64,000 bases of DNA, taken from Minisyncoccota bacterium. GTDB lineage: Bacteria; Patescibacteriota; Minisyncoccia; Phycocordibacterales; Phycocordibacteraceae. Below the pieces are notes generated by a model. It was not told the DNA's origin. It made no database searches and worked only from the letters and a program-made list of their open reading frames with translations. A program made the translations under genes and the position numbers. Below, piece by piece: positions 5,211 to 56,427 of this stretch. The stretch's first letter is position 1; each line of letters begins with the position of its first letter. The stretch lies in NCBI GenBank assembly GCA_041663025.1, contig JBAZRE010000001.1:5912-69911 (forward strand), read 5' to 3'.

Positions 5211-5253
5211 TATATCCTTATCTTTACCGACCGGTATTTATAAGAATATTCAG
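5211..5253. repeat. copy-specific direct repeat A1, downstream flank of wHTH-Cas2-like paralog 1
   Basis: ATATCCTTATCTTTACCGACCGGTATTTATAAGAATAT. It is about 80 percent identical over about 40 bp to 5857-5898, and 22 of the first 23 bp match. Confidence 0.6.
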
Positions 5254-5256
5254 AAG

Positions 5257-5838
5257 TTACATTAAAGGAAGATTGAATTGCCGTCGGATACCTTTGTCGT
5301 GTTCTATTGTATCGGCAATTGCATAGAGAACATCCTTGCCTATCTTGAGTTCTGCTTTGAGAAGCGCGATGAAATCTTCGCAATCATAAGGGTAGACCCA
5401 CACGCTATCTTGCAAACGAATGAATCCCACTTCGCGCATGACAGCACATAGACGAAATCTCACTCGGCTTCTTCGTTCGGGAATATCAAAGACGATCATT
5501 CGCCAACGCTTATCCCATTTCTTTTTCTGATTTTTAATAGCAACTTTCGCTTGCTCAAGAGCAACCGCTTTGCGTCCTTTAGGGGTTATTCGTAAAAATT
5601 TCTTTCCATCTCTTTCGATCCAGTTTGCATATCCTTTGGTTACTAAACGCCCTGATGCTGACTTTGCTCTATACCTCAAGTTGTATTTTTCATTTGGCAG
5701 GTATTTGAGGAGCTGAAGAGCGTTCCCAGCGATGGCCGCTACAGCAATAAAGCCCGTGACTGCGACGGCAGCAAGCACTGCGTGTTGGATATCTCGTTTC
5801 TTTTTCCTTTTTCGCGACGTCTCTTCGAGTTTCCCCAT
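5257..5838 (-). CDS. membrane-anchored winged-helix + Cas2-like domain protein (paralog 1 of 3)
   Basis: 193 aa with a basic N-terminus (RKRKKKR) and a TM helix (AVLAAVAVTGFIAVAAIAG). A wing-like segment (GRLVTKGYANWIERDGKKFLRITPKG) follows. The C-terminus WRMIVFDIPERRSRVRFRLCAVMREVGFIRLQDSVWVYPYDCEDFIALLKAELKIG matches the Cas2 pattern by eye (lVvYDI…rR.k..k.l..yG.RvQnSVFec…). Confidence 0.5.
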   Translation of the reverse strand: MGKLEETSRKRKKKRDIQHAVLAAVAVTGFIAVAAIAGNALQLLKYLPNEKYNLRYRAKSASGRLVTKGYANWIERDGKKFLRITPKGRKAVALEQAKVAIKNQKKKWDKRWRMIVFDIPERRSRVRFRLCAVMREVGFIRLQDSVWVYPYDCEDFIALLKAELKIGKDVLYAIADTIEHDKGIRRQFNLPLM

Positions 5839-5856: not shown

Positions 5857-5898
5857 AATATCCCTATCTTTACCGACCGATTGTTGATAAGGATACGA
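5857..5898. repeat. copy-specific direct repeat A2, upstream flank and promoter region of paralog 1
   Basis: ATATCCCTATCTTTACCGACCGATTGTTGATAAGGATAC. It contains the dyad ATCAA…TTGAT. Confidence 0.6.
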
Positions 5899-13720: not shown

Positions 13721-14464
13721 ATGCCACGAGAATTACAGAAAGTTACGCAGTATGAGTTCGATATGTTGGGCGCCGCGCTTGCGCAAGAGGGTTGGCAGAT
13801 TGAATGCCAATATTCGGTAAACGATATTGAGCCGATAATGCTCAACATCCTTGATTTCAAACTTACTCCTTTTGACACCGGAAAGGTGCAACTCGCTCTA
13901 ACCCTCCGAGAGAAAGGCGACTTGTTTAGGGAGGAGTTCGAGATTGAAGTCAAAAGAGTCTTTGCCGAAGGACAGCTCGGAATAGCGACCGGTGAACTAC
14001 GACGATTTACTGTCGCGGTCCGCAACCTACCGAGAATGCACCGCCCTGGTGCACGTTTAGGATTTGGTTATTGGCGCGTGCTTAAACCGAACACTTTCGG
14101 ACTTCTCTTCACCCGAAGCAAAGCAGCTCTGCCAGGGTGGCCGCTTCACAAACATCTTCAGCACCACCAACATCCTACGTACGGATTTGAAGAACATCTG
14201 AAGAGATACGGAAATGGTGACAATCTTCTCCGCACTGCGCGCTTTGCGCAATCACAAGCTCTTCAAGTCGGCGATATTCTCGCAACTGGTGACAAAGTTC
14301 TCTCTCCTCCGCGGAGAGGATTCAACGGTTCGGTTCTCATTCACCTAACCGGAGGATTCAACGGTCATTGGATTGATGTTGCGTCTCGACTCCCGATTGC
14401 CCTGCTAACTGCGGAAGATCATGCCCCTGCGGAAATCTGGAATCGAATCTGGAACCAAACGTGA
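13721..14464 (+). CDS. hypothetical protein
   Basis: 247 aa with a good SD (AGAAAGGGGG) before ATG. No recognisable motifs. Confidence 0.45.
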   Translation: MPRELQKVTQYEFDMLGAALAQEGWQIECQYSVNDIEPIMLNILDFKLTPFDTGKVQLALTLREKGDLFREEFEIEVKRVFAEGQLGIATGELRRFTVAVRNLPRMHRPGARLGFGYWRVLKPNTFGLLFTRSKAALPGWPLHKHLQHHQHPTYGFEEHLKRYGNGDNLLRTARFAQSQALQVGDILATGDKVLSPPRRGFNGSVLIHLTGGFNGHWIDVASRLPIALLTAEDHAPAEIWNRIWNQT

Positions 14465-14481: not shown

Positions 14482-14514
14482 GAGCCCTCCCGCTCCTTGT
14501 GGGCTTTTTGTTTA
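14482..14514 (+). terminator. rho-independent terminator
   Basis: GAGCCCTCCCGCTCCTTGTGGGCTTTTTGTTT. Confidence 0.6.
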
Positions 14515-14516
14515 TC

Positions 14517-14558
14517 CACTATTTATAACGGTCGTAGATACTTTTTGATATTACTTCA
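14517..14558. repeat. copy-specific direct repeat B1, downstream flank of paralog 2
   Basis: …TTTATAACGGTCGTAGATACTTTTTGATATTAC. The core ACGGTCGT..ATA.TTTTTGATA is shared with 15143-15170. Confidence 0.55.
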
Positions 14559-15132
14559 GACCGAAATGTTCGCGCAGATGCTTATCGTTTTCAATTTCTT
14601 CAACAACCATATACAACACAGCAGACCCAATCTTTAACTCTGCTTTTAACAATGCAACGAAATCCTCACAATCGTATGGAAAGACCCATACGCTATCCTG
14701 TAGACGAACGAAGCCAATTTCCTGCATAAGAATTCGCAATCGATCGCGTGTCTTGCGGCGACGCTCCGGCACGTCAAAGATAACCACGCGCCACCTGCCA
14801 TTCCAGCGGCGTTTTTTGGAGAGATCTAATTTCTTTTTCTCGAGTTCGAAAGTAAGTTTCTTCTGTCCCGCATCCGTGATTTGCGCATATGATTTGCCAT
14901 CCCTTTTTTGAAACGTAACAAGTCCGAGCACTGCAAGCCTCCCAAGTGCAGTACGGTATTGGTAACGTAATTTCGCTCGTTGTAACGGAGGTAGTTTCGC
15001 AAGCGCTCCCGGCAGACCAGGCGCTATGGCCGCGACAAGTACGACACCCGATAGAGCAACAGCGGCAAGCAAACCAGCTTGGACATTTGTACGTATTCTC
15101 TTTTTCTTCGCTCCTGATTCTACATTCCCCAT
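14551..15132 (-). CDS. membrane-anchored winged-helix + Cas2-like domain protein (paralog 2 of 3)
   Basis: 193 aa with a basic N-terminus, a TM helix (AGLLAAVALSGVVLVAAIAPG) and a wing segment (GLVTFQKRDGKSYAQITDAGQKKL). The C-terminus is WRVVIFDVPERRRKTRDRLRILMQEIGFVRLQDSVWVFPYDCEDFVALLKAELKIG. Confidence 0.5.
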   Translation of the reverse strand: MGNVESGAKKKRIRTNVQAGLLAAVALSGVVLVAAIAPGLPGALAKLPPLQRAKLRYQYRTALGRLAVLGLVTFQKRDGKSYAQITDAGQKKLTFELEKKKLDLSKKRRWNGRWRVVIFDVPERRRKTRDRLRILMQEIGFVRLQDSVWVFPYDCEDFVALLKAELKIGSAVLYMVVEEIENDKHLREHFGLK

Positions 15133-15175
15133 ATCAAAAATATACCACGGTCGTGTATAGTTTTTGATACAGAGG
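15130..15175. promoter_or_regulatory. palindromic site B2 in the divergent promoter region between paralog 2 and the 81-aa ORF
   Basis: catATCAAAAAtataccacggtcgtgtatagTTTTTGATacag. It has 8-9 bp inverted arms around a spacer of about 20 bp, and is a diverged direct repeat of 14517-14558. Confidence 0.5.
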
Positions 15176-18411: not shown

Positions 18412-19659
18412 ATGTCAAAGCGCATTGAACCAGAGGTTGAGACGTTCGCACGGATTCGGGTGGTTGGCGTCGGTGGCTCGGGCAAAAATGCAGTGAATCA
18501 CATGATCGATTCGAAGGTGCGTGGCGTTGAGTTCATCGCGGTCAACTCTGATGCGCAAGATCTCCACCGGTCGCTCGCCAAGCGCAAGATCCACATCGGA
18601 AAGAATCTCACGAGAGGGCTCGGCACAGGGATGAATCCTGAGCTCGGCAAGCGCGCCGCCGAGGAGACCCGTCAAGAGATCCAAGAAGCACTCTCGGGCA
18701 GCGACATGGTCTTCATCACCTGCGGCATGGGTGGTGGCACCGGCACTGGAGCCTCTGCGATTATTGCAAAAATAGCGAAAGAGGTCGGTGCACTCGTCAT
18801 CGCGGTCGTGACGAAACCATTTTCCTTTGAGGGTGCACAGCGCAAAGATATCGCCGAGCGCGGTCTCGCCGAATTGAAGAAAGAGGTTGATGCATTCATA
18901 GTCATCCCAAATGACAAACTACTCGCGATTGTCGATAAGGATACGTCAGCAAAAAGCGCCTTCGCGATGTGTGACGAGATCTTGCGCCAAGCGGTCGAGG
19001 GCGTCTCCGACATTATTACGACTCCTGGTGATATCAATACCGACTTTAACGACATCAAGGCAATTATGGAGGGTGCCGGCCCTGCTCTCATGGGTATCGG
19101 CATCGCTGAAGGTGACGAACGAGCTCGTGAGGCCGCACGCCAGGCGGTCAATTCCCCACTCCTTGATGTTTCTATTAGTGGTGCAAAAGGCATTCTCTTC
19201 GTCGTGGCTGGATCTGATGATCTCGGCATCATGGAGGTACAAGAGGCCGCAAAGGTTATAAGTGAATCTATCGACAAGAGCGCGAAGGTTATCTTCGGCA
19301 TTATGCGCGATGAGAAACTTAAGAAGGGCCAGATTCGCATTATCGTCATCGCAACTGGTTTCCCAGAGGGAGCGATACACACATCTACAGTCGAGCGTTC
19401 TCTATTCTCGATGCCGGTAGAAAAACATGAGGAAGAACGTGGTCGCATTTATCATGAGATTCTAAAGCGTGAAGAAAAAGAAGAGAAACCGGAGGTTAAG
19501 GTTGAGAAAAACTTGACTGTCGAAAGCACTCCTTTTGGCGGAAAGGAAGAACCTATCGTCACGGCACTGCCGCACAAGCGCGAGGTGATTCCTGTTGTTC
19601 CAGAAGATGATGAATCCTGGGGCGCAATTCCGGCATTTTTGCGCCGTCATAAAAAGTAG
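18412..19659 (+). CDS. ftsZ: cell division protein FtsZ
   Basis: 415 aa. GVGGSGKNAV…, the tubulin signature GGGTGTG and the T7 loop are all present. Confidence 0.95.
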   Translation: MSKRIEPEVETFARIRVVGVGGSGKNAVNHMIDSKVRGVEFIAVNSDAQDLHRSLAKRKIHIGKNLTRGLGTGMNPELGKRAAEETRQEIQEALSGSDMVFITCGMGGGTGTGASAIIAKIAKEVGALVIAVVTKPFSFEGAQRKDIAERGLAELKKEVDAFIVIPNDKLLAIVDKDTSAKSAFAMCDEILRQAVEGVSDIITTPGDINTDFNDIKAIMEGAGPALMGIGIAEGDERAREAARQAVNSPLLDVSISGAKGILFVVAGSDDLGIMEVQEAAKVISESIDKSAKVIFGIMRDEKLKKGQIRIIVIATGFPEGAIHTSTVERSLFSMPVEKHEEERGRIYHEILKREEKEEKPEVKVEKNLTVESTPFGGKEEPIVTALPHKREVIPVVPEDDESWGAIPAFLRRHKK

Positions 19660-19671
19660 TTTTGTTTTGAA

Positions 19672-19703
19672 TGGAAAAAGGCAGATTCTCATCTGCCTTT
19701 TTT
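19672..19703 (+). terminator. rho-independent terminator
   Basis: GGAAAAAGGCAGATTCTCATCTGCCTTTTTT. Confidence 0.65.
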
Positions 19704-19725
19704 GATGCTTCACGCGTCAAGAAGA

Positions 19726-20502
19726 TTACCCCTCAACTAACGGCTTCATCCTCGGCCAGCAATCCCGTGATGGCACCCCTTCTGAGGAATGAGGAGGCCA
19801 CTCTTGTACATAACCCCAGCAGAGTTTGGGTCGCCCACCAAAGTTTTTTTCGGCAGAGACAGCCATCCGCTTATCTCTGTTTTCGTTTCCCCCAAAACGC
19901 GACCCGAGTGCTGAAATGTAGCCGATCCTTGAGAGAACGTCTGTGTGCACACAAAGCGCGACAACTTCTGTGATGGTCAGCGGAAATCGATTTTGTTTCG
20001 CAAGGAGCTTCTCAGCATTTTTCTCGTTTGCCTCGATTGATGTCGTTCCGTCATTTATGTCGAAGATGTAGCTCAGCGCACTTGTCTTTTCAACATCCTC
20101 AACCGAATAACTGTGGTCGGCATAACCGACTTTACCATCGGTGGTTCGTATCATAGCCATGAGATCATAGACGGTGCGCTGATCTAATGAAATGACCGGC
20201 AAGAACGGGATATTCCATTTGCCCAAAGTCATTTCCATCGCATGCCGCATAACATCTCCTTTGCTGTTACGAAGCCATCTCCTAATCGGTTCGGGAACAC
20301 CGCGTTCTATGAGAGTCGCGATTTGACTCTCAAAAAGTTTGTCGAACTCCTTCCATCTGGTGATCTCACTGTTGGCGTGTGCCACGGTAGCATCGATTTT
20401 TTCTCTGAAATCATCAATGGTTTCGAACGGTTCCATAATTGCTTTGACTAACTTATTGTCTGTCTCTATTCTTTCTTTCATCTCCCACCTCCCTATAAAC
20501 AC
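19726..20502 (-). CDS. hypothetical protein, downstream partner of paralog 3
   Basis: 258 aa with no recognisable motifs. The palindromic site C1 (20591-20649) lies about 90-150 bp upstream of its start. Confidence 0.45.
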   Translation of the reverse strand: MFIGRWEMKERIETDNKLVKAIMEPFETIDDFREKIDATVAHANSEITRWKEFDKLFESQIATLIERGVPEPIRRWLRNSKGDVMRHAMEMTLGKWNIPFLPVISLDQRTVYDLMAMIRTTDGKVGYADHSYSVEDVEKTSALSYIFDINDGTTSIEANEKNAEKLLAKQNRFPLTITEVVALCVHTDVLSRIGYISALGSRFGGNENRDKRMAVSAEKNFGGRPKLCWGYVQEWPPHSSEGVPSRDCWPRMKPLVEG

Positions 20503-20590
20503 AGTTATTTGTTATATCTCAAACACCCTAATCCGCCGTAAGTTAACTCCTTTGTCGCCGAAAAGTCAAAGTGATTGTACTAAGCCGGCT

Positions 20591-20649
20591 CATGTATCAA
20601 TTTTCATCCTATAGGATAAGAATTGAGACAACTTACTTTCACAAGTCAT
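20591..20649. promoter_or_regulatory. repeat C1: palindromic TCCTATAGGA-centred site upstream of 19726..20502 and downstream of paralog 3
   Basis: CATGTATCAATTTTCATCCTATAGGATAAGAATTGAGACAACTTAC. It is a near-duplicate of 21225-21276. Confidence 0.55.
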
Positions 20650-21227
20650 AGGAGTCGGAAGTGTTCCCGAAGTCGGCGATCTGATTCAAGTGCCTCGGCA
20701 ACGAATGAGAGCATTTCGCCCGTACCGCTCTTGAGGTGTGCGCGGACAAGCCCGATGAATTCATCACAGGGATATGGATATATCCAGACACTGTCCTGAA
20801 GCCTCAAGAAACCAGCGCCCATGAGAAGAGTCCGTAGTTGCGAACGAGCTCGCCTGCGCTTCTCGCGGATATCAAACATAACGACGCGCCACTTGCCATC
20901 CCAGAATACTGGTGCAGGAATGCGGTATTCGTTTGCGTACACCGTTCCAATCACCGCACGACCCTTTTCGGTCAACGAGGCATTGCGGTGTCCATACTTT
21001 CCTGATGTCTTTACGAGACCGGCGTACTCGAGACGGGTTATTGCCTGCGTGATACGACGGTACAAATCTTTCCGATTCGCCACACCACGATCAAGTTTTT
21101 TCAGAATGGTCAGTACCCTCGGAGCGACGAGTGCGACACCGAGCGCCCCACTCACTGCTAGCGTTCGCAAAATGAGATTGCGCATTGGCAGATATTTCCC
21201 GCGCGTTTCCGTCCGCATTTTCTTCAT
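20646..21227 (-). CDS. membrane-anchored winged-helix + Cas2-like domain protein (paralog 3 of 3)
   Basis: 193 aa with a hydrophobic helix (LAVSGALGVALVAP) and a recognition helix plus wing (ITRLEYAGLVKTSGKYGHRNASLTEKG). The C-terminus is WRVVMFDIREKRRRARSQLRTLLMGAGFLRLQDSVWIYPYPCDEFIGLVRAHLKSG. Confidence 0.5.
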   Translation of the reverse strand: MKKMRTETRGKYLPMRNLILRTLAVSGALGVALVAPRVLTILKKLDRGVANRKDLYRRITQAITRLEYAGLVKTSGKYGHRNASLTEKGRAVIGTVYANEYRIPAPVFWDGKWRVVMFDIREKRRRARSQLRTLLMGAGFLRLQDSVWIYPYPCDEFIGLVRAHLKSGTGEMLSFVAEALESDRRLREHFRLL

Positions 21228-21276
21228 GTATCAAATTATATCCTATAGGACAGAAATTGAGACATGTTATTAACAA
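21225..21276. promoter_or_regulatory. repeat C2: roughly 42 bp imperfect palindrome overlapping the paralog 3 start codon and promoter
   Basis: CATGTATCAA-attata-TCCTATAGGA-cagaaa-TTGAGACATG. The outer arms match 9/10 as inverted repeats around a perfect 10-bp core palindrome. Confidence 0.6.
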
Positions 21277-21322
21277 TAGGTAGAAATTCTGTTCAATGCA
21301 TAGAAAGTGATAGAATAGGGCG

Positions 21323-22246
21323 ATGTACGATTTAATAATCATCGGCGGGGGGCCGGCGGGGGTGGCTGCAGGCATTTATGCAGCACGGAAACATCTAAAA
21401 GCGGTTCTGATTGCTGAAGAGATCGGCGGACAATCTGTTGTCTCAAGCGGCATAGAGAATTGGATCGGTATGCCGAAGATCAGTGGTGCAGATTTTGCGA
21501 AGTCTATGAGAGAGCATCTCGAGGTGGTGAAGGGCGATATTGTCACGCTCGCCATCGGCGAGCGTGTCGTCTCGCTTGAATCCCAACTTGGCGGTTTCAC
21601 CGCCAAAACAAAATCAGGCAAAGAATTTTCTGCAAAAGCTGTCCTCATTGCTTCTGGTGCCAGCCGCCGCAAGCTTGATATCCCGGGCGCAGATAAGTTT
21701 GAACATAAGGGTGTCACCTACTGCGCCTCCTGCGACGGCCTCCTCTTCTCGGGTATGGACGTCGCGGTGGTCGGTGGCGGTAATGCCGGTTTTGAGACGG
21801 CACTCCAACTTCTCGCGTATGCGAAATCGGTCACCCTTATTCATCGTCATGCAGAATTCAAGGCTGATCAGATAACAATAGAGAAAACGCGTGCTCATCC
21901 CAACATGCACATTATTGCTCATGCCGAGCCGACTGAAGTCATCGGCGAACAGTTTGTCACTGGTTTAAAATATAAAGACAAAGGGTCTGATGAAATAAGA
22001 GAAGTGAGTGTGTCTGGTATATTTGTCGAAGCGGGCGTTGTACCGAATACACAGTTTGCCGAAGGGTTTGTTGAGCTTGATGCGGTAAAAAGAGTGAAGA
22101 CCGATCCTCATAACCAACACACGAGCGTTGAGGGCATCTGGGCTGCCGGTGACTGCACCGACGAGCTCTACCATCAGAACAACATCGCCGCCGGCGACGG
22201 CGTTAAAGCAGCAGAAGATATTTATCTTTGGATCAAGAAGCAATAA
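21323..22246 (+). CDS. trxB: thioredoxin-disulfide reductase
   Basis: 307 aa. FAD motif DLIIIGGGPAG, redox-active CASCDG, and NAD(P) motif VAVVGGGNAG. Confidence 0.9.
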   Translation: MYDLIIIGGGPAGVAAGIYAARKHLKAVLIAEEIGGQSVVSSGIENWIGMPKISGADFAKSMREHLEVVKGDIVTLAIGERVVSLESQLGGFTAKTKSGKEFSAKAVLIASGASRRKLDIPGADKFEHKGVTYCASCDGLLFSGMDVAVVGGGNAGFETALQLLAYAKSVTLIHRHAEFKADQITIEKTRAHPNMHIIAHAEPTEVIGEQFVTGLKYKDKGSDEIREVSVSGIFVEAGVVPNTQFAEGFVELDAVKRVKTDPHNQHTSVEGIWAAGDCTDELYHQNNIAAGDGVKAAEDIYLWIKKQ

Positions 22247-25812: not shown

Positions 25813-26672
25813 GTGAAAAACAAACGGTTATTCTTTATCATGGTGGATGCCCCGATGGCTTCGGGAGCGCCTATGCCGCATGGAAAAAATTTGGCGACAC
25901 GGCAGAATATATTCCATTAAAATTACATGAGCGGCCCATCCCAGAAGGACTCGAGGGTAAACATCTCTTTTTTATCGACTTCACCTATCCGCAGGACATC
26001 ATGGATGAGATTGTGAAGACTGCTGCGTCTGTGACGGTTCTCGATCACCATCTCGGCATACAAGAGGTTGTGGAGAGTATGCCGGATCATGTGTTTGATG
26101 AAAAACGATCTGGTGCAACTATTGCATGGAGCTATTTTCATCCCGATGTTCCCATCCCGTTCTTGTTAAAATATGTTGAAGATGCGGATCGGTATGTTTT
26201 CTTACTTCCTGATTCTCGCGCGGTGATCGCCTACGCGTATGCGCAGCGATTTACTTTTGAAGATTGGGATCATCTCGTGCAAGAATTTGAAAATGAACAA
26301 ACGCGCGCAACATTGATAGAGAAGGGTAAGGTATATGCAGAATATTTTGCAATCTTAGTCGAACAAATCTCCAAAAAGGCGATACTCGTGTCGTTTGAAG
26401 GACACACCTGTTATCTCTCAGCCGCGACTGACATGTTCAAATCGGACGTGGGGAACAATCTTGCTCACCTACATCCACCGCTTGCCATTATCGCAAACCT
26501 GCATGGCGACGTCATAAACGTGTCACTCCGGAGTGACTCCAGCGTTGATGTATCAGTTATTGCACGGAAATATGGAGGAAATGGACATCCTCATGCGGCC
26601 GCCTTTCGATTGAAGTGGGGAGACCCACTCCCTTGGGTAGTGTTAGATGAAAATGAAAATCCTAGCCATTGA
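25809..26672 (+). CDS. DHH-family phosphoesterase (NrnA-like)
   Basis: VILYHGGCPDGFGSAYA and VLDHH (the DHH motif), plus a DHHA1-like C-terminus (…GGNGHPHAAAF). Confidence 0.7.
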   Translation: MSEKQTVILYHGGCPDGFGSAYAAWKKFGDTAEYIPLKLHERPIPEGLEGKHLFFIDFTYPQDIMDEIVKTAASVTVLDHHLGIQEVVESMPDHVFDEKRSGATIAWSYFHPDVPIPFLLKYVEDADRYVFLLPDSRAVIAYAYAQRFTFEDWDHLVQEFENEQTRATLIEKGKVYAEYFAILVEQISKKAILVSFEGHTCYLSAATDMFKSDVGNNLAHLHPPLAIIANLHGDVINVSLRSDSSVDVSVIARKYGGNGHPHAAAFRLKWGDPLPWVVLDENENPSH

Positions 26673-27891
26673 AACCTCGTGTGACGAGACCGCAATTGCG
26701 ATACTCGAGTGCACTGGAGATGAAACGCATGCTGAGTTTAAAGTACTTGGGAACGCACTCCTCTCACAAATAGAAATTCACAAACAATATGGCGGCGTCT
26801 TCCCTGCCCTCGCAAAACGCGAGCACGCGAAGAATCTCGTGCCGATTCTCGAGGCAGCACTCGAGGAAGCAGAGCTATTGCATGAAGACACCCAAGCAAT
26901 CGCGGATGAGACCCGCGCCAAAATTTCAGAAATTTTGGCGCGTGAGCCCGGTCTCACTGAAACGTTTTTCGAATTCATTTCTGAATGTGAGCCTCCTGCG
27001 ATCGACGAAATCGCCGTCACGGCCGGCCCCGGCCTCGAGCCGGCGCTCTGGGTCGGTATTAATTTTGCAAAGGCGCTCGCGCTCGTTTGGCAGAAGCCGC
27101 TAGTCGCGGTGAACCATATGGAGGGACACATACTCGCCGCACTTGCTCGGCAAGAAGCACGAAGCACGAAGCACGAAGAACCAAACGAATCTCAAACAGA
27201 AAAATTGGAAATTAAAAATGTGCAATTCCCCATACTCGCCCTCCTGATTTCTGGTGGACACACGCAGCTCGTCTTGATGCGTGAATGGCTTCAGTACGAG
27301 CTTATTGGAGAGACGCGTGATGATGCTGTTGGCGAGGCCTTCGATAAGGTTGCGCGCATGCTCGCACTCCCCTACCCTGGCGGTCCTGAGATCTCCAAGC
27401 TTGCAGAAGAAGTTAGGACATCGAATGTCCTAGTTTCTGAAATAGGACATTCGATGTCCAGACCCGAATTCAAACTCCCGAGGCCAATGATCAATGAAAA
27501 CAGCTGCGACTTCTCATTTGCCGGACTAAAAACTGCGGTGTTAAATTTATTGAAAAAGATCCCCGACATAAGTGACGATGATAAGAAACACATAGCGCAC
27601 GAATTCGAAAATGCCGTCACTGATGTTTTGTGGAAGAAGACTGCGCGTGCACTTGAAGAAACTGGCGCCCAAACACTCATCATCGGTGGTGGCGTCTCGG
27701 CCAACACTCACATCAAGCGGACTTTCCAAGAAAATGTCTCCCAAGAATTTTCTGAAGTTGCACTCAAGATACCGGCGGCATCGCTCTCAACCGATAACGC
27801 TATTATGATTGCCATCGCTGGCTACTATCGTGCCTTGCGCAAAGAATTTTCAAATGATTTTGTTGCAAATGGCAACCTCCCTCTTATCTGA
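26647..27891 (+). CDS. tsaD: tRNA N6-adenosine threonylcarbamoyltransferase TsaD (Kae1/YgjD family)
   Basis: MKILAIETSCDETAIAI…NHMEGHILA…ISGGHTQL…GGGVSAN. It carries two in-frame insertions. Confidence 0.9.
   Translation: MKMKILAIETSCDETAIAILECTGDETHAEFKVLGNALLSQIEIHKQYGGVFPALAKREHAKNLVPILEAALEEAELLHEDTQAIADETRAKISEILAREPGLTETFFEFISECEPPAIDEIAVTAGPGLEPALWVGINFAKALALVWQKPLVAVNHMEGHILAALARQEARSTKHEEPNESQTEKLEIKNVQFPILALLISGGHTQLVLMREWLQYELIGETRDDAVGEAFDKVARMLALPYPGGPEISKLAEEVRTSNVLVSEIGHSMSRPEFKLPRPMINENSCDFSFAGLKTAVLNLLKKIPDISDDDKKHIAHEFENAVTDVLWKKTARALEETGAQTLIIGGGVSANTHIKRTFQENVSQEFSEVALKIPAASLSTDNAIMIAIAGYYRALRKEFSNDFVANGNLPLI
27413..27462. repeat. in-frame palindromic element inside tsaD
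   Basis: GGACATCGAATGTCC – 14 nt – GGACATTCGATGTCC. Each 15-mer is self-complementary and the two are reverse complements. It encodes RTSNVLVSEIGHSMSRP. Confidence 0.8.
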
Positions 27892-40155: not shown

Positions 40156-40827
40156 ATGACAAAGAGAGATGCCCCGTTTGCTGTCGGCGAGTGGTACCAC
40201 TGCTACAACCGTGGTATTGAAAAGCGTACCGTGTTTGAAGATACCAGGGATTATCATCGCTTTCTCGAACTCCTTTACTTGGCAAATGATGAGTTCCCTC
40301 TCCGGCGTGAAGATATCGGCACATATAAATTTGAAGAAATATTAAAGATTCCCCGCGGCAAGAAATTGGTCGCCATTGGAGCGTTCTGCCTGATGCCTAA
40401 CCACTTCCATCTGGTGCTGAAGGAGATCTCGGAGGGAGGTATCACCGCATTTATGCGAAAAATCGGAACATCCTATACTTTGTATTTTAATGCACGGCAT
40501 GAGAGGACTGGAAACCTCTTCCTAAAGCCATTCCGATCCCTTCATGTATCTAACGACCGTTACTTCCAACACCTCATTAACTATGTTCACTGCAATCCAG
40601 CAGCTCTCTATGAACCTGGGTGGAAAACTAACCAGGTTGTGGACCCTCAATTCTTGGGAGAACAGATTGCAGCTTATCCATACTCAAGTCTTGGTGCCCA
40701 TACTGGTGCACACCCATCGACCAGACCCATCCTGGATGCAGAAGTATTCTCCATAACGCATACTGTTCGGATACAAAAGATGCTGCAAGAAGCACGACAG
40801 TATTACGCTGATTCTAATCTTCCGTAA
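40156..40827 (+). CDS. IS200/IS605-family Y1 (HUH) transposase-like protein, REP-associated (RAYT-like)
   Basis: ATG at 40156 (MTKRDAPF…) is preferred. The N-terminal part of the longer track ORF overlaps the REP hairpins. WYHCYNRG…, the HUH motif CLMPNHFHLVL, and the catalytic Tyr region YVHCNPAA. Confidence 0.75.
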   Translation: MTKRDAPFAVGEWYHCYNRGIEKRTVFEDTRDYHRFLELLYLANDEFPLRREDIGTYKFEEILKIPRGKKLVAIGAFCLMPNHFHLVLKEISEGGITAFMRKIGTSYTLYFNARHERTGNLFLKPFRSLHVSNDRYFQHLINYVHCNPAALYEPGWKTNQVVDPQFLGEQIAAYPYSSLGAHTGAHPSTRPILDAEVFSITHTVRIQKMLQEARQYYADSNLP

Positions 40828-40874
40828 GGCCGTAAGGTGTCACTTTACGTCAGGCGTAAAGTGACACCTTACGG
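40822..40874. repeat. compound REP-like hairpin (family 1) downstream of the RAYT gene
   Basis: CCGTAAGG + CCGTAAGGTGTCACTTTACG-tcaggc-CGTAAAGTGACACCTTACGG (a 20-bp stem). Confidence 0.8.
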
Positions 40875-40898: not shown

Positions 40899-41241
40899 CG
40901 GACTGAACTAAGCGATCGCCCGCCAACATCTGCGAAGTTGTGGCGGGAGGAAAGTCCGAACATACTCCTGCCGTAAGGCGGGAAAATAGGTAGCGGGTAA
41001 CGCCCGTCGTCCGTGAGGATAGAGGTGACCACAGAAACGTCCTGAGCGAAAGTGAAGGAATTCCCTCGTGGAATACGCCCGTCGCGAGATGGGAATGCAA
41101 CGACTAAATCCTTACCCGTATGCAAGGCCGTGCCCGACCACACTTCGAGTGTGACGGGAGTGACGCTTAAGGCGTTGAGTAATTAACGGCTCAGATAAAT
41201 GATCGCTCACGACAGAATTCGGCTTATCGGCTCAGTCCACA
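40899..41241 (+). ncRNA. rnpB: RNase P RNA (bacterial type A-like)
   Basis: P1 pairs GGACTGA (40900-40906) with TCAGTCC (41232-41238). The P4 5' strand is GGGAGGAAAGTCCGAACA, the P4 3' strand is ACAGAATTCGGCTTATCGG, and the internal sequence GCGAAAGTGAAGG is also present. Confidence 0.8.
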
Positions 41242-41248
41242 AAGATGC

Positions 41249-55989: not shown

Positions 55990-56025
55990 AAAAGATACTT
56001 CACCATAACACTAAAACACTAATTT

Positions 56026-56427
56026 GTGGAGGCGCGGGGAGTTGAACCCCGGTCCGAGAATGTTTATGAAAGCGATTCTACGACGCATAGTCAGCGTTAG
56101 ATTTAAGGCAGGATGCGAGGAACGCAGACGAAACCATTCCTGCCCGATCCCTTATTTAAATGTGCCGAGCGGGAGGTCGGACATCGATTCAACAGATAAT
56201 TCCGCCCCTGCCTCCGGCTGTAGAAACCCGAGAGGAGAGACGTCGCGCTAGGCGTGTGCCGTTAGGCTGCGTAGGCGAACGCGAAGTCAGACACACCGAA
56301 GTATGGAGACTTCACGCTTGCAAGAGTGTTCTTGGCAAGTTTGATTTCCCGCCAGTTTTAAGTGTTAGCGGGAGAGCACTGCGTCGCACGTCTTTCAAAG
56401 AACAGACCGTCAAAGCCGGTCACCCCC
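56026..56427 (-). ncRNA. ssrA: tmRNA (transfer-messenger RNA)
   Basis: The 5' end is GGGGGTGACCGGCTTTGACGG and the 3' end is …GGACCGGGGTTCAACTCCCCGCGCCTCCA, giving a tRNA-Ala-like acceptor with G3-U70 and a T-arm. An internal tag frame ends …FAFAYAA-TAA. It lies directly downstream of smpB on the same strand. Confidence 0.8.

What the first reader, a model, noticed from the sequence alone, without database searches (positions are those of the whole stretch)
20591..21276. Paralog 3 is bracketed by two copies of a roughly 45 bp element built around a perfect palindrome TCCTATAGGA; the second copy sits in front of the next gene
The copy at 21225-21276 is CATGTATCAA-attata-TCCTATAGGA-cagaaa-TTGAGACATG. 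It is an extended imperfect palindrome whose outer 10-bp arms match 9/10, and it overlaps the paralog 3 ATG. The copy at 20591-20649 is CATGTATCAAttttcaTCCTATAGGAtaagaaTTGAGACAacttac. It lies about 90-150 bp upstream of the hypothetical gene 19726-20502. A dyad of this size is what a dimeric wHTH protein would bind. This suggests paralog 3 autoregulates and co-regulates the downstream 258-aa hypothetical gene. Alternatively the two copies are long direct repeats left by an insertion or duplication event.
Basis: seen in the sequence. Interest (0 to 1): 0.65.

Follow-up and report, generated by a model that had tools for sequence, protein, structure and literature searches.

The report
Self-bracketed mini-PaaX gene cassette
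The two 45-bp palindromes are real and are the matched DNA-binding sites of the small regulator encoded between them; this operator–gene–operator layout holds in about 85% of a large protein family of ultra-small (Patescibacteria) bacteria, and the whole unit has been inserted at many different places in their genomes.

Summary
A 38–46-nt imperfect palindrome centred on TCCTATAGGA occurs exactly twice in 64 kb, at 20590-20635 and 21224-21269, bracketing the 193-aa gene 20646..21227(-).

The pattern is general. Both other paralogs in the window, and 66 of 77 homologous loci from other Patescibacteria, carry their own pair of cognate palindromes. Mismatched locus pairs reach that level 3.4% of the time.

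The sites share one plan:
- an invariant C-N4-G centre;
- an AT-rich spacer;
- 8-bp outer arms that differ between loci but match between the two half-sites and between the upstream (U) and downstream (D) copies.

The protein is a "mini-PaaX": a winged helix plus a Cas2-like domain, with no ligand domain. E. coli PaaX binds a 39-bp dyad of the same geometry.

U overlaps the -10 box and the leaderless ATG, which implies autorepression. D follows the stop codon and is equally good when the next gene is convergent, so "co-regulates the downstream gene" does not generalise.

The U–gene–D unit is discrete and insertable. Sister genomes have ftsZ directly next to trxB. Close homologs sit in at least eight contexts, one inside the ribosomal spc operon. 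Five cassettes are flanked by 50–130-bp target duplications.

Best reading: an autonomous, autoregulated cassette in which the protein bridges its two end sites. Whether it mobilises itself is open.

The parts
21224..21269 (-). U3: upstream cognate dyad of paralog 3. Core palindrome 21227-21264, centre between 21245 and 21246. On the minus strand it contains the -10 box TATAAT (21240-21235) and, 7 nt further on, the start codon (21227-21225).
   Evidence: -10 position statistics
20646..21227 (-). Paralog 3: 193-aa mini-PaaX protein. It has a hydrophobic N-terminal segment, a winged helix (recognition helix about residues 52-68, wing 72-85) and a Cas2-like domain (109-190). There is no PaaX_C domain.
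   Evidence: Pfam PaaX_M 3.3e-17; TIGR02277 and TIGR01573 partial hits; AlphaFold2 model, pLDDT 69.5; Foldseek top hit E. coli PaaX 8A39, E=2e-6
20590..20635 (-). D3: downstream cognate dyad of paralog 3. Core 20593-20630, centre between 20611 and 20612. It starts 10 nt after the stop codon. It has the same arms and centre as U3, but its -10 position is degenerate (GAAAAT).
19726..20484 (-). Downstream hypothetical gene with a weak DUF5701 match. It is part of the same insertion between ftsZ and trxB. It is not a conserved partner of the family.
19660..21304 (.). Segment absent from about 65 sister genomes, in which ftsZ is followed within 12-200 bp by the leaderless trxB promoter. It holds the ftsZ terminator, the DUF5701-like gene, D3, paralog 3 and U3.
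5858..5894 (-). U1: upstream dyad of paralog 1. Arms TATCCYTATC / GATAAGGATA, centre CGGTCG on the gene strand.
5257..5838 (-). Paralog 1, 193 aa, 34% identical to paralog 3.
5212..5246 (-). D1: downstream dyad of paralog 1. It differs from U1 by one indel.
15132..15169 (-). U2: upstream dyad of paralog 2. Arms TATCAAAAA / TTTTTGATA, centre CGACCG. It abuts the ATG.
14551..15132 (-). Paralog 2, 193 aa, 36-38% identical to paralog 3.
14513..14550 (-). D2: downstream dyad of paralog 2. It abuts the stop codon. The next gene (13721..14464 +) is convergent, so D2 cannot be a promoter operator for it.

Best explanation
The two elements are the cognate binding sites of the protein encoded between them. 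Together with the gene they form a self-contained cassette: site, gene, site.

The protein. It is a roughly 190-aa 'mini-PaaX', a winged helix-turn-helix fused to a Cas2-like domain.

How it binds (inferred). A dimer sits on each 38-bp dyad. The variable recognition helix (residues about 51-64) reads the 8-bp outer arms at positions ±11-18. A conserved part of the protein, probably the Cas2-like dimer core on the two-fold axis, faces the invariant centre C(T/G)(A/G)(T/C)(A/C)G.

The upstream site U. It carries the -10 box and the start codon of a leaderless mRNA, so occupancy shuts the gene off. This is autorepression, as PaaX does at its own promoter Px.

The downstream site D. It lies just past the stop codon, has the same arms and is bound by the same protein. 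I propose that dimers at U and D pair up, looping out the roughly 0.65-kb gene. That makes repression cooperative and makes the cassette regulate itself independently of where it sits.

Diversification and movement. The arms change quickly and in concert at all four half-sites, which keeps the four or more paralogs per genome orthogonal. The cassette is the unit that has been duplicated and inserted at new chromosomal places, sometimes with 50-130-bp duplications of the target.

What is shown: the anatomy of the sites, their family-wide pairing, covariation with the protein, the insertion polymorphisms and the target duplications.

What is inferred: binding itself, autorepression, U-D bridging, and any role of the protein in moving the cassette.
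For: (1) All three paralogs in the window are bracketed by their own dyad pair.

(2) The bracket is family-wide. In 61 of 75 homolog loci the U-D local alignment exceeds the 99th percentile of mismatched pairs. By the joint site finder, 66 of 77 loci reach at least 26/40 identity, against 3.4% of mismatched pairs.

(3) Site anatomy over 66 loci:
- positions ±3 are C/G in 100%;
- arms at ±11-18 show dyad symmetry 0.82-0.95 and U-D identity 0.83-0.95, yet only 0.1-0.7 bit of conservation across loci;
- spacers at ±5-10 are poorly symmetric, with U-D identity 0.52-0.79.
This pattern argues for selection by one protein rather than gene conversion.

(4) Arm mismatches show no G·T wobble bias on the sense strand, so the signature is that of a double-stranded DNA site, not an RNA hairpin.

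(5) Mutual information links arm positions to residues 51-64 (position d17 with residue 57, z=11.7). It links the centre to the Cas2-like domain (residue 125, z=25).

(6) The U centre lies 17-20 nt before the ATG in 31 of 66 loci. There TATAAT sits at +6..+11 with 4.45/6 matches in U against 3.0/6 in D.

(7) The best fold match is E. coli PaaX 8A39. The PaaX operator is TGATTC-N27-GAATCA, 39 bp, and PaaX represses its own promoter (PMC9493321).

(8) D quality does not depend on the orientation of the downstream gene.

(9) Among roughly 80%-identical homologs from five contexts, homology starts at the outer edge of U and stops at the outer edge of D.

(10) Insertion polymorphisms: ftsZ|trxB and rplE|rpsN.

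(11) Long flank duplications occur in 5 cassettes against 0 of 87 control genes.
Against: No binding, repression or looping has been measured; all of that is inferred from sequence.

The centre-to-centre distance (594-749 bp) shows no helical phasing. That is neutral for a loop of this size, but it gives no positive support.

Nothing shows that the protein forms tetramers.

The covariation between the centre and the Cas2-like domain is confounded by phylogeny.

The N-terminal segment is hydrophobic enough to be a membrane helix (Kyte-Doolittle 19-residue mean 1.7-2.6) and is modelled with low confidence. The true architecture of the DNA-binding domain is therefore uncertain.

About 14% of loci lack a detectable pair.

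Solo sites next to other genes (L132, L125) show that at least some paralogs also have targets in trans, so the cassette is not always a closed system.
Confidence: 0.55

Rival explanations
1. IS-like mobile element. The two dyads are the ends of a minimal mobile element and the wHTH-Cas2-like protein is its mobilising enzyme. It binds both ends, pairs them, and cuts or joins at or near the conserved centre using the invariant acidic residues of the Cas2-like domain. The promoter inside the left end gives autoregulation, as in many insertion sequences.
For: - The unit boundaries coincide with the sites.
- Homologs at 68-85% identity lie in at least eight unrelated contexts, including inside the rplE-rpsN junction of the spc operon.
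- Empty sites exist in sister genomes.
- Five cassettes have 50-130-bp target duplications, against 0 of 87 control genes.
- There are four or more diverged paralogs per genome and no conserved partner gene.
- The Cas2-like domain is the conserved part of the protein. D119, the equivalent of the Cas2 β1 Asp, is invariant, as are D110, E181, D183 and C154. Canonical PaaX and Rv0674 lack that Asp.
Against: - There are no near-identical copies within a genome; the closest pair is 84% identical.
- The target duplications vary in length and lie 12-100 nt outside the dyads rather than abutting them.
- No catalytic class known to transpose is present, and Cas2 is not known to catalyse strand transfer.
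- Some cassettes have kept their position across orders (L059 for the paralog 2 context, L069/L075 for the paralog 1 context).
- Empty sites carry no solo dyad.
- No relatives were found on viral contigs.
Confidence: 0.25
2. The protein is an ordinary local regulator. U is its autoregulatory operator, and D is the operator through which it controls the next gene downstream (here the 258-aa DUF5701-like gene).
For: - D3 lies 89-107 nt upstream of the next co-directional gene.
- In 35 of 63 loci the downstream neighbour is co-directional.
- Solo family-type sites occur upstream of other genes (L132, L125).
Against: - 28 of 63 downstream neighbours are convergent, yet D is equally well conserved: palindrome score 15.0 against 15.6 of 20, and U-D identity 32.4 against 32.2 of 40.
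- D2 in this window faces a convergent gene.
- D lacks a -10 box at the position where U has one.
- The distance from D to the next start ranges from 17 to 920 nt.
- Downstream genes are unrelated from locus to locus.
Confidence: 0.1
3. D acts at the RNA or termination level. The palindrome is transcribed at the 3' end of the mRNA and forms a long hairpin that terminates or stabilises the transcript. Alternatively, protein bound at D acts as a roadblock that insulates the cassette from read-through.
For: - D lies 3-115 nt after the stop codon, median 37.
- Several D copies are perfect or near-perfect 38-40-nt palindromes, for example in L004, L011, L030, L054 and L080.
- The P genes in the window have no canonical terminator of their own.
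Against: - Arm mismatches show no G·U-compatible bias: in D, 11 G·T against 11 A·C against 48 other.
- No T-run follows D3.
- A hairpin alone does not explain why the D arms track the U arms and the recognition helix.
- A roadblock would be harmful for the cassette sitting antisense inside the ribosomal operon.
Confidence: 0.07
4. Neutral relic. The two copies are simply leftovers of the duplication or insertion event that created paralog 3, with no present function.
For: The segment is an insertion relative to sister genomes. Paralog 3 is an 84% duplicate of a fourth paralog on the same contig.
Against: - Pairs are kept in 86% of loci across a family whose members are only 35% identical.
- Within the sites, conservation is patterned: arms and centre are kept, spacers drift.
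- In the infB context the D arms are identical in L004, L081 and L084 while the flanks cannot be aligned.
- Empty sites do not contain the sequence.
Confidence: 0.03

Closest known systems
PaaX (phenylacetyl-CoA-responsive repressor of E. coli and Pseudomonas; PDB 8A39, 3L09) and Rv0674 (3KFW)
   Same: An N-terminal winged helix followed by a Cas2-like (PaaX_M) domain. PaaX is the best sequence and fold match. Its operator is a long dyad with widely spaced arms, TGATTC-N27-GAATCA (39 bp), close to the 38-40 bp seen here. It represses its own promoter by occluding RNA polymerase (PMC9493321).
   Different: - No PaaX_C ligand-binding domain; the protein is about 190 aa against about 310.
- It scores 36 bits against the TIGR02277 cut-off of 264.
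- No paa genes are nearby.
- It keeps the Cas2-type FD(I/V) Asp and the Q-x-SVW motif that PaaX has lost.
- It has a conserved dyad centre.
- It has a second cognate site behind its own stop codon.
- It has several orthogonal paralogs per genome.
- It occurs only in Patescibacteria in the loci fetched.
Cas2 of CRISPR-Cas adaptation modules (the name NCBI gives this family)
   Same: A ferredoxin-like fold with the β1 Asp and the Q-x-SV(F/W) strand motif. TIGR01573 scores 28.4 bits against a cut-off of 24.5. Foldseek hits S. pyogenes Cas2 5ZYF. CRISPR spacer integration also duplicates a 25-40-bp, partly palindromic repeat. That is a loose parallel to the long duplications seen around some cassettes.
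   Different: - The match covers only the first 38 of 96 model positions, and Pfam Cas2 is below its cut-off.
- The protein is twice the size, with an added wHTH.
- There is no CRISPR array in the window.
- No cas genes appear in any of the called-gene tables.
Insertion sequences whose transposase promoter lies in the left terminal repeat (my own knowledge of IS biology)
   Same: One small gene, with a binding site for its product at each end. The left site overlaps the promoter, so the product autoregulates. The unit is found inserted in many contexts, with flanking target duplications in some cases.
   Different: - No DDE, HUH, serine or tyrosine catalytic domain.
- Each end is itself a palindrome.
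- The duplications are 50-130 bp, variable, and not flush with the ends.
- There are no near-identical copies.
RAYT/REP systems: REP-associated tyrosine transposases flanked by their cognate REP palindromes (my own knowledge)
   Same: A single-copy gene flanked on both sides by short imperfect palindromes that co-vary with the encoded protein. Different paralogs have different palindromes.
   Different: - The RAYT is a Y1 HUH enzyme that acts on single-stranded hairpins.
- REPs are scattered in tens to hundreds of copies. Here only the two flanking copies occur in 64 kb.
- The mismatch pattern here does not indicate hairpins.
Repressors with auxiliary operators and DNA loops (LacI O1-O2, GalR, λ CI)
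   Same: A second operator a few hundred bp from the promoter operator, here proposed to raise local repressor concentration by looping (concept as in PMC3592455, listed).
   Different: In those systems the loop controls a target operon. The repressor gene itself is not the thing bracketed, and the arrangement is not a family-wide, portable feature.

Membership tests
PaaX family (TIGR02277; PaaX_N + PaaX_M + PaaX_C) | Central Cas2-like PaaX_M domain | tested here: met
   PF20803 scores 3.3e-17, 62.8 bits, against a cut-off of 24.
PaaX family (TIGR02277; PaaX_N + PaaX_M + PaaX_C) | N-terminal winged-helix DNA-binding domain collinear with PaaX | tested here: inconclusive
   There is no Pfam PaaX_N hit. 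The HMM alignment to 8A39 is collinear (query residues 59-119 against PaaX residues 57-116). Foldseek aligns 190 columns to 8A39 at E=2e-6. However, residues 1-50 have pLDDT below 55 and are TM-like in hydrophobicity.
PaaX family (TIGR02277; PaaX_N + PaaX_M + PaaX_C) | C-terminal PaaX_C effector (phenylacetyl-CoA) domain and full-length equivalog score | tested here: not met
   The protein ends at residue 193. There is no PaaX_C hit. TIGR02277 scores 36.5 bits against a cut-off of 264.55.
PaaX family (TIGR02277; PaaX_N + PaaX_M + PaaX_C) | Operator made of two short inverted repeats about 27 bp apart, overlapping the regulated promoter | tested here: met
   The dyads are 38-40 bp with arms at ±11-18, and they overlap the -10 box and ATG. 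The reference operator is TGATTC-N27-GAATCA (PMC9493321). Binding itself was not tested.
CRISPR-associated Cas2 | Full-length match to a Cas2 model (stand-alone protein of about 90-100 aa) | tested here: not met
   TIGR01573 scores 28.4 bits but covers model positions 2-38 of 96 only. Pfam PF09827 scores 19.9, below its cut-off of 23.8. The protein is 193 aa.
CRISPR-associated Cas2 | Genomic association with cas1 and a CRISPR array | tested here: not met
   There is no array in the window. No cas genes appear in the called-gene tables of more than 20 loci. Cas1 elsewhere in the genome was not searched for.
CRISPR-associated Cas2 | Conserved β1 Asp and the Q-x-SVF strand motif | tested here: met
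   D119, Q144 and S146 are invariant in 66 members, and V147/W148 in at least 98%.
Insertion sequence / DNA transposon | Transposase of a known catalytic class | tested here: not met
   Pfam, NCBIfam and PADLOC give only PaaX_M, Cas2 and wHTH hits.
Insertion sequence / DNA transposon | Short, fixed-length target duplication flush with the terminal repeats | tested here: not met
   Duplications were found in 5 cassettes. They are 50-130 bp and lie 12-100 nt outside the dyads. None was found for the three cassettes in the window.
Insertion sequence / DNA transposon | Presence/absence polymorphism and multiple genomic contexts | tested here: met
   Empty ftsZ|trxB sites and empty rplE|rpsN sites. 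At least eight contexts for homologs at 68-85% identity.
Insertion sequence / DNA transposon | Several (near-)identical copies per genome | tested here: not met
   Paralogs in the window are 34-38% identical. The closest same-contig pair is 84% identical.
RAYT/REP | Cognate palindromes dispersed in many copies through the genome | tested here: not met
   There are only the two flanking copies per paralog in 64 kb. The rest of the genome is not available.
Looping repressor with auxiliary operator | Protein oligomer that bridges two operators | not testable with these tools
   This needs biochemistry or a multimer-DNA model. The only result here is the absence of helical phasing.

The most novel reading that the evidence does not exclude
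The cassettes are a previously unrecognised kind of minimal mobile element of Patescibacteria. Each is about 0.7 kb and holds one gene for a wHTH-Cas2-like protein. That protein recognises a private 38-bp dyad at each end of its own gene, pairs the ends, and uses the conserved Cas2-type acidic site on the dyad axis to nick or join DNA. Insertion takes place at 3' ends of genes and leaves 50-130-bp target duplications. If so, this would be a Cas2 relative acting as a site-specific DNA enzyme outside CRISPR, with a duplication geometry reminiscent of CRISPR repeat duplication.
Probability: 0.2. Interest if true: 0.9.

Novelty: new variant of a known kind. Interest (0 to 1): 0.7.

Why it matters
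Patescibacteria have tiny genomes and few recognisable regulators. Yet this family is large (426 clusters at 50% identity at E≤1e-30) and present in several copies per genome. It is currently mislabelled as "CRISPR-associated endonuclease Cas2".

The analysis shows that each member comes with two private, co-evolving 38-bp sites. This gives:
- a ready-made prediction of protein-DNA specificity for hundreds of natural, mutually orthogonal repressor/operator pairs, which is useful for deciphering wHTH recognition rules and for synthetic biology;
- a directly testable model for gene control in organisms that cannot be cultured alone;
- evidence that a regulator gene plus its sites behaves as a portable unit that can land even inside the ribosomal protein operon, with unusually long target duplications.

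If the Cas2-like domain proves to be catalytic, it would bear on the origin of Cas2 and on how CRISPR adaptation modules arose from mobile or toxin-like ancestors.

Tried and rejected
RNA hairpin or known RNA. The arm mismatches show no wobble bias. Rfam finds nothing at the sites. The consensus terminator scan found no terminator at the sites (its only hit is 19617-19633, + strand), and its single promoter-like hit (20444-20472, + strand) was no more than shuffles gave.

Generic repeat. Exact, degenerate and arms-only searches, and a whole-window palindrome scan, find only the flanking pairs.

The palindrome as target-site duplication or pre-existing integration site. Sixty-odd empty ftsZ|trxB junctions and three empty rplE|rpsN junctions contain no solo dyad.

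Gene conversion as the reason U resembles D. The spacers are not homogenised while the arms and centre are.

Helical phasing of U-D spacing. None was found: Rayleigh p=0.04, 0.57 and 0.09 for periods of 10, 10.5 and 11 bp.

DUF5701 as a conserved partner. There are no homologs next to other family members.

Phage origin. There are no relatives in IMG/VR.

Defence-system membership. PADLOC gives only partial Cas2 hits.

CRISPR context. There is no array.

Literature. Searches combining PaaX with Cas2 or Cas2-like, PaaX with Candidate Phyla Radiation, and Cas2 with winged helix and Patescibacteria all returned nothing.

Target duplications around the three cassettes in the window. None was found.

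Membrane anchor. The question could not be settled. Hydropathy says TM-like. The model and the collinearity with PaaX say these are helices H1-H2 of the winged helix.
Full report
1. The observation.

The region was read directly. The repeat finder reports a 46-nt direct repeat, 20590-20635 and 21224-21269, at 83% identity. Each copy is an imperfect palindrome. TCCTATAGGA occurs only at 20607-20616 and 21241-21250. The 40-mer consensus, and an arms-only pattern, each hit only these two places, with about 0 hits expected from shuffles.

The upstream copy (U3) contains the start codon of the 193-aa minus-strand ORF 20646..21227. On that strand it also holds a TATAAT box (21240-21235) 7 nt before the ATG, which makes the mRNA leaderless. 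The downstream copy (D3) starts 10 nt after the stop codon.

2. The gene.

The ORF matches Pfam PaaX_M, the "PaaX central Cas2-like domain", at 3.3e-17, plus weak winged-helix families. It matches NCBIfam PaaX at 36 bits against a cut-off of 264. It matches Cas2 at 28.4 bits against a cut-off of 24.5, but only over model positions 2-38 of 96. That partial hit explains why NCBI names the family "CRISPR-associated endonuclease Cas2".

An AlphaFold2 model (47-sequence alignment, pLDDT 69.5) shows the order H-S-H-H-wing followed by a β-α-β-β-α-β domain. Foldseek's best hits are E. coli PaaX 8A39 (E=2e-6, 190 columns) and Rv0674 3KFW. Domain-level hits go to MarR/ArsR winged helices and to Cas2. 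There is no PaaX_C domain.

Residues 15-45 are very hydrophobic: the Kyte-Doolittle 19-residue mean is 1.7-2.6 in all 47 sequences. They are also collinear with helices H1-H2 of PaaX. I could not decide whether they form a membrane anchor or a buried helix pair.

The family is large: 426 clusters at 50% identity at E≤1e-30 and 2803 at E≤1e-10. Every named source is Patescibacteria: Kaiser-, Nomura-, Zambryski-, Taylor- and Lloydbacteria and others. The window contains no CRISPR array.

3. The pattern is general.

tblastn finds two paralogs in the window, 5257..5838(-) and 14551..15132(-), also 193 aa and 34-38% identical to paralog 3. Each is bracketed by its own, different palindrome:
- 5212-5246 / 5858-5894, arms TATCCYTATC, centre CGGTCG;
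- 14513-14550 / 15132-15169, arms TATCAAAAA, centre CGACCG.

A fourth paralog (P0006, 84% identical to paralog 3) lies on the same ENA contig upstream of infB. It is bracketed by TGTCGGAAT...CCTATAGG...ATTCCGACA.

I fetched 80 homologous loci from one-genome-per-species contigs. For each, I compared the 130 nt upstream of the gene with the 130 nt downstream. In 61 of 75 loci the score exceeded the 99th percentile of mismatched pairs (null mean 8.4, 99th percentile 15; observed values commonly 20-35). With a joint centre finder, 66 of 77 loci have at least 26/40 identity between U and D, against 3.4% of mismatched pairs.

4. Anatomy of the site (66 loci).

- Positions ±3 from the dyad centre are C and G in 100% of U and D copies. 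Positions ±2 are T/A or G/C. Positions ±1 are A/G and T/C. Centre types are therefore CTATAG and CG(A/G)(T/C)CG.
- Positions ±5-10 are AT-rich with poor symmetry (0.47-0.73) and low U-D identity (0.52-0.79).
- Positions ±11-18 are the arms. Dyad symmetry is 0.82-0.95 and U-D identity 0.83-0.95, yet information content across loci is only 0.1-0.7 bit. The arms are hypervariable between loci but matched at all four half-sites within a locus.

Because the spacers are not homogenised, gene conversion does not explain the U-D similarity. Selection by one binding protein does.

Mismatches in the arms show no sense-strand G·T bias (D: 11 G·T, 11 A·C, 48 other). That argues against an RNA hairpin.

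The review PMC9493321 gives the E. coli PaaX operator as TGATTC-N27-GAATCA (39 bp). It also states that PaaX represses its own promoter by hindering RNA polymerase. The geometry is the same as here.

5. Protein-DNA covariation.

Across the 66 loci the winged-helix region is almost unconserved. The Cas2-like domain holds the invariant residues W109, D110, W113, R114, F118, D119, R128, Q144, S146, V147, W148, P151, C154, E181, D183 and F190. D119 corresponds to the Cas2 β1 Asp, which PaaX and Rv0674 lack.

Mutual information between protein columns and folded half-site positions is highest for arm positions against residues 51-64, the predicted recognition helix. Examples are d17-res57 (z=11.7), d18-res57 (8.5), d14-res61 (8.1) and d18-res64 (7.4). 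The regional mean z is 2.2 against about 1.0 elsewhere.

Centre positions covary most with the Cas2-like domain (d4-res125, z=25; regional mean 2.3). The regional contrast for the arms is a fair internal control for phylogeny. The centre result is more exposed to subfamily structure.

6. What U and D do.

The U centre lies 17-20 nt before the ATG in 31 of 66 loci. In those, the hexamer at +6..+11 matches TATAAT 4.45/6 in U, with A2 and T6 present in 74%. In D it matches 3.0/6, with A2 and T6 in 29%. So U is both promoter and operator, and D is not a promoter.

The D centre lies 3-115 nt (median 37) after the stop codon. The centre-to-centre distance is 594-749 bp without helical phasing.

The downstream neighbour is convergent in 28 of 63 loci. 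D is just as good there: palindrome score 15.0 against 15.6 of 20, and U-D identity 32.4 against 32.2 of 40. In this window D2 faces a convergent gene. The conservation of D is therefore tied to the regulator gene itself and not to a downstream promoter.

7. The cassette is a discrete, insertable unit.

(a) I fetched 80 sister loci using trxB as the query. In about 65 of them ftsZ is followed within 12-200 bp by the leaderless trxB promoter. They have no P gene, no DUF5701 gene and no solo dyad. Only L121 shares paralog 3 and the same U site. Other genomes carry unrelated genes in the same gap. Window 19660-21304 is therefore an insertion into a hot spot.

(b) I aligned seven cassettes whose proteins are about 80% identical. 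They come from five contexts: trxB, infB, dnaG/rpoC, a sugar operon and lysS/mraZ. Homology begins at the outer edge of U and ends at the outer edge of D.

(c) Homologs of paralog 2 at 72-81% identity lie between RNase J and rplT-rpmI-infC. They keep the arms ATATCAAAA/TTTTGATAT.

(d) A 68% homolog (L178) sits antisense between rplE and rpsN inside the spc operon. Three sister genomes whose L5 is 92-95% identical have rplE directly followed by rpsN. In L178 the insert is flanked by a 54-56-nt direct duplication of the 3' end of rplE, at 87% identity. The two copies are more alike than either is to the sisters.

(e) A systematic scan found similar long flank duplications, 50-79 nt in the DNA alignments, in L071, L022, L001 and L064. 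In L071 and L022 the duplicated piece is the 3' end of the upstream gene: an epimerase-like gene in L071 and a ligA-like gene in L022. In L022 the duplication extends to about 130 nt when the protein-level similarity up to the stop codon is included. These loci score 30-46 against a null 99th percentile of 13. None of 87 control genes in the same loci shows anything comparable; their maximum is 16.5. The duplications lie 12-100 nt outside the dyads.

(f) On the other hand, some cassettes keep their position over long evolutionary distances. L059 shares the ftsA/ftsZ context of paralog 2, and L069/L075 share the context of paralog 1, each with completely different arms. No near-identical copies exist. 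No relatives occur on viral contigs. The three cassettes in the window show no flank duplication.

8. Interpretation.

The well-supported core is this: the two elements are cognate binding sites of the encoded mini-PaaX, and site-gene-site is a conserved, portable cassette. I put confidence in that core at about 0.8.

For the mechanism I commit to the following. U gives autorepression. D is a second site for the same protein. Dimers at U and D pair, looping out the gene. That makes repression cooperative and independent of genomic context. Paired ends are also the obvious substrate for the rare relocations.

Overall confidence in this fuller statement is 0.55. Binding, repression and bridging are all inferred.

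The main rival is that the protein itself mobilises the cassette, an IS-like logic with a Cas2-like catalytic core. I give it 0.25. The two readings overlap, since many transposases autoregulate through a promoter in their left end.

The downstream-gene operator model (0.10), RNA or termination models (0.07) and the neutral-relic model (0.03) fit the family-wide data poorly.

9. Comparison and novelty.

The protein works like PaaX: a long dyad operator and autorepression. It fails PaaX membership because it lacks the effector domain and falls far below the cut-off. It fails Cas2 membership on length, context and partial match. It resembles IS elements and RAYT/REP units in layout but lacks their enzymes and copy-number signatures.

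I found no paper describing this family or its bracketing sites.

I rate it a new variant of a known kind, namely a PaaX-type repressor and operator. There is a 0.2 chance that it is something categorically new: a Cas2-related, self-mobilising mini-element.

Noticed in passing
L178 2296-3173; L022, L071, L001, L064 (flanks of the cassettes): Long direct duplications (50-130 nt) flank five cassettes. The duplicated piece is the 3' end of the neighbouring gene where that gene could be identified: rplE in L178, a ligA-like gene in L022 and an epimerase-like gene in L071. An intact copy sits on the gene side and a decaying copy on the far side. None of 87 control genes shows this.
   Followed up: partly
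L132 about 1095-1135; L125/L138 positions 203 and 246; L141 position 167: Solo family-type dyads occur without an adjacent family gene. One has paralog-1-like arms and lies upstream of a 75-aa ORF in the ftsZ|trxB gap. In L125/L138 two different dyads lie 43 nt apart upstream of the ftsA operon. These suggest that some paralogs also have targets in trans.
   Followed up: partly
window 19660-21322 and loci L096, L106, L112, L147, L169: The ftsZ|trxB junction is a hot spot. Different sister genomes carry unrelated minus-strand genes of 205-479 aa in that gap.
   Followed up: partly
window 21308-21325 and the ftsZ-trxB gaps of L092-L171: trxB appears to be leaderless. An extended -10 (TGaTAGAAT) ends 6 nt before the ATG at 21323, and the same arrangement is conserved in the sister loci.
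   Followed up: no
window 27416-27459: A 44-nt near-perfect palindrome, GGACATCGAATGTCCTAGTTTCTGAAATAGGACATTCGATGTCC, lies inside the listed ORF 26647..27891. It is unrelated to the family dyads.
   Followed up: no
window 40819-40873 and 40900-41242: A 24-nt tandem repeat (2.2 copies) sits immediately upstream of the RNase P RNA gene. The window also holds tmRNA at 56024-56427 and eight tRNA genes.
   Followed up: no
window 14209-14365: Internal repeats lie in the 3' part of ORF 13721..14464: a 33-nt repeat at 14209/14281 and an exact 14-mer GAGGATTCAACGGT at 14316/14352. This is the gene convergent on paralog 2.
   Followed up: no
L084-L086 6834-7475: A LAGLIDADG_3-like ORF (weak Pfam hit) lies downstream of infB-rbfA in the genomes that carry the infB-linked paralog.
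   Followed up: no
family-wide (P0001, P0002 and others): Public annotation calls these proteins 'CRISPR-associated endonuclease Cas2'. The name rests on a 28-bit match to the first 38 positions of TIGR01573. No CRISPR array (checked in the window) or cas gene (gene tables of the fetched loci) was seen, so the name is misleading.
   Followed up: yes
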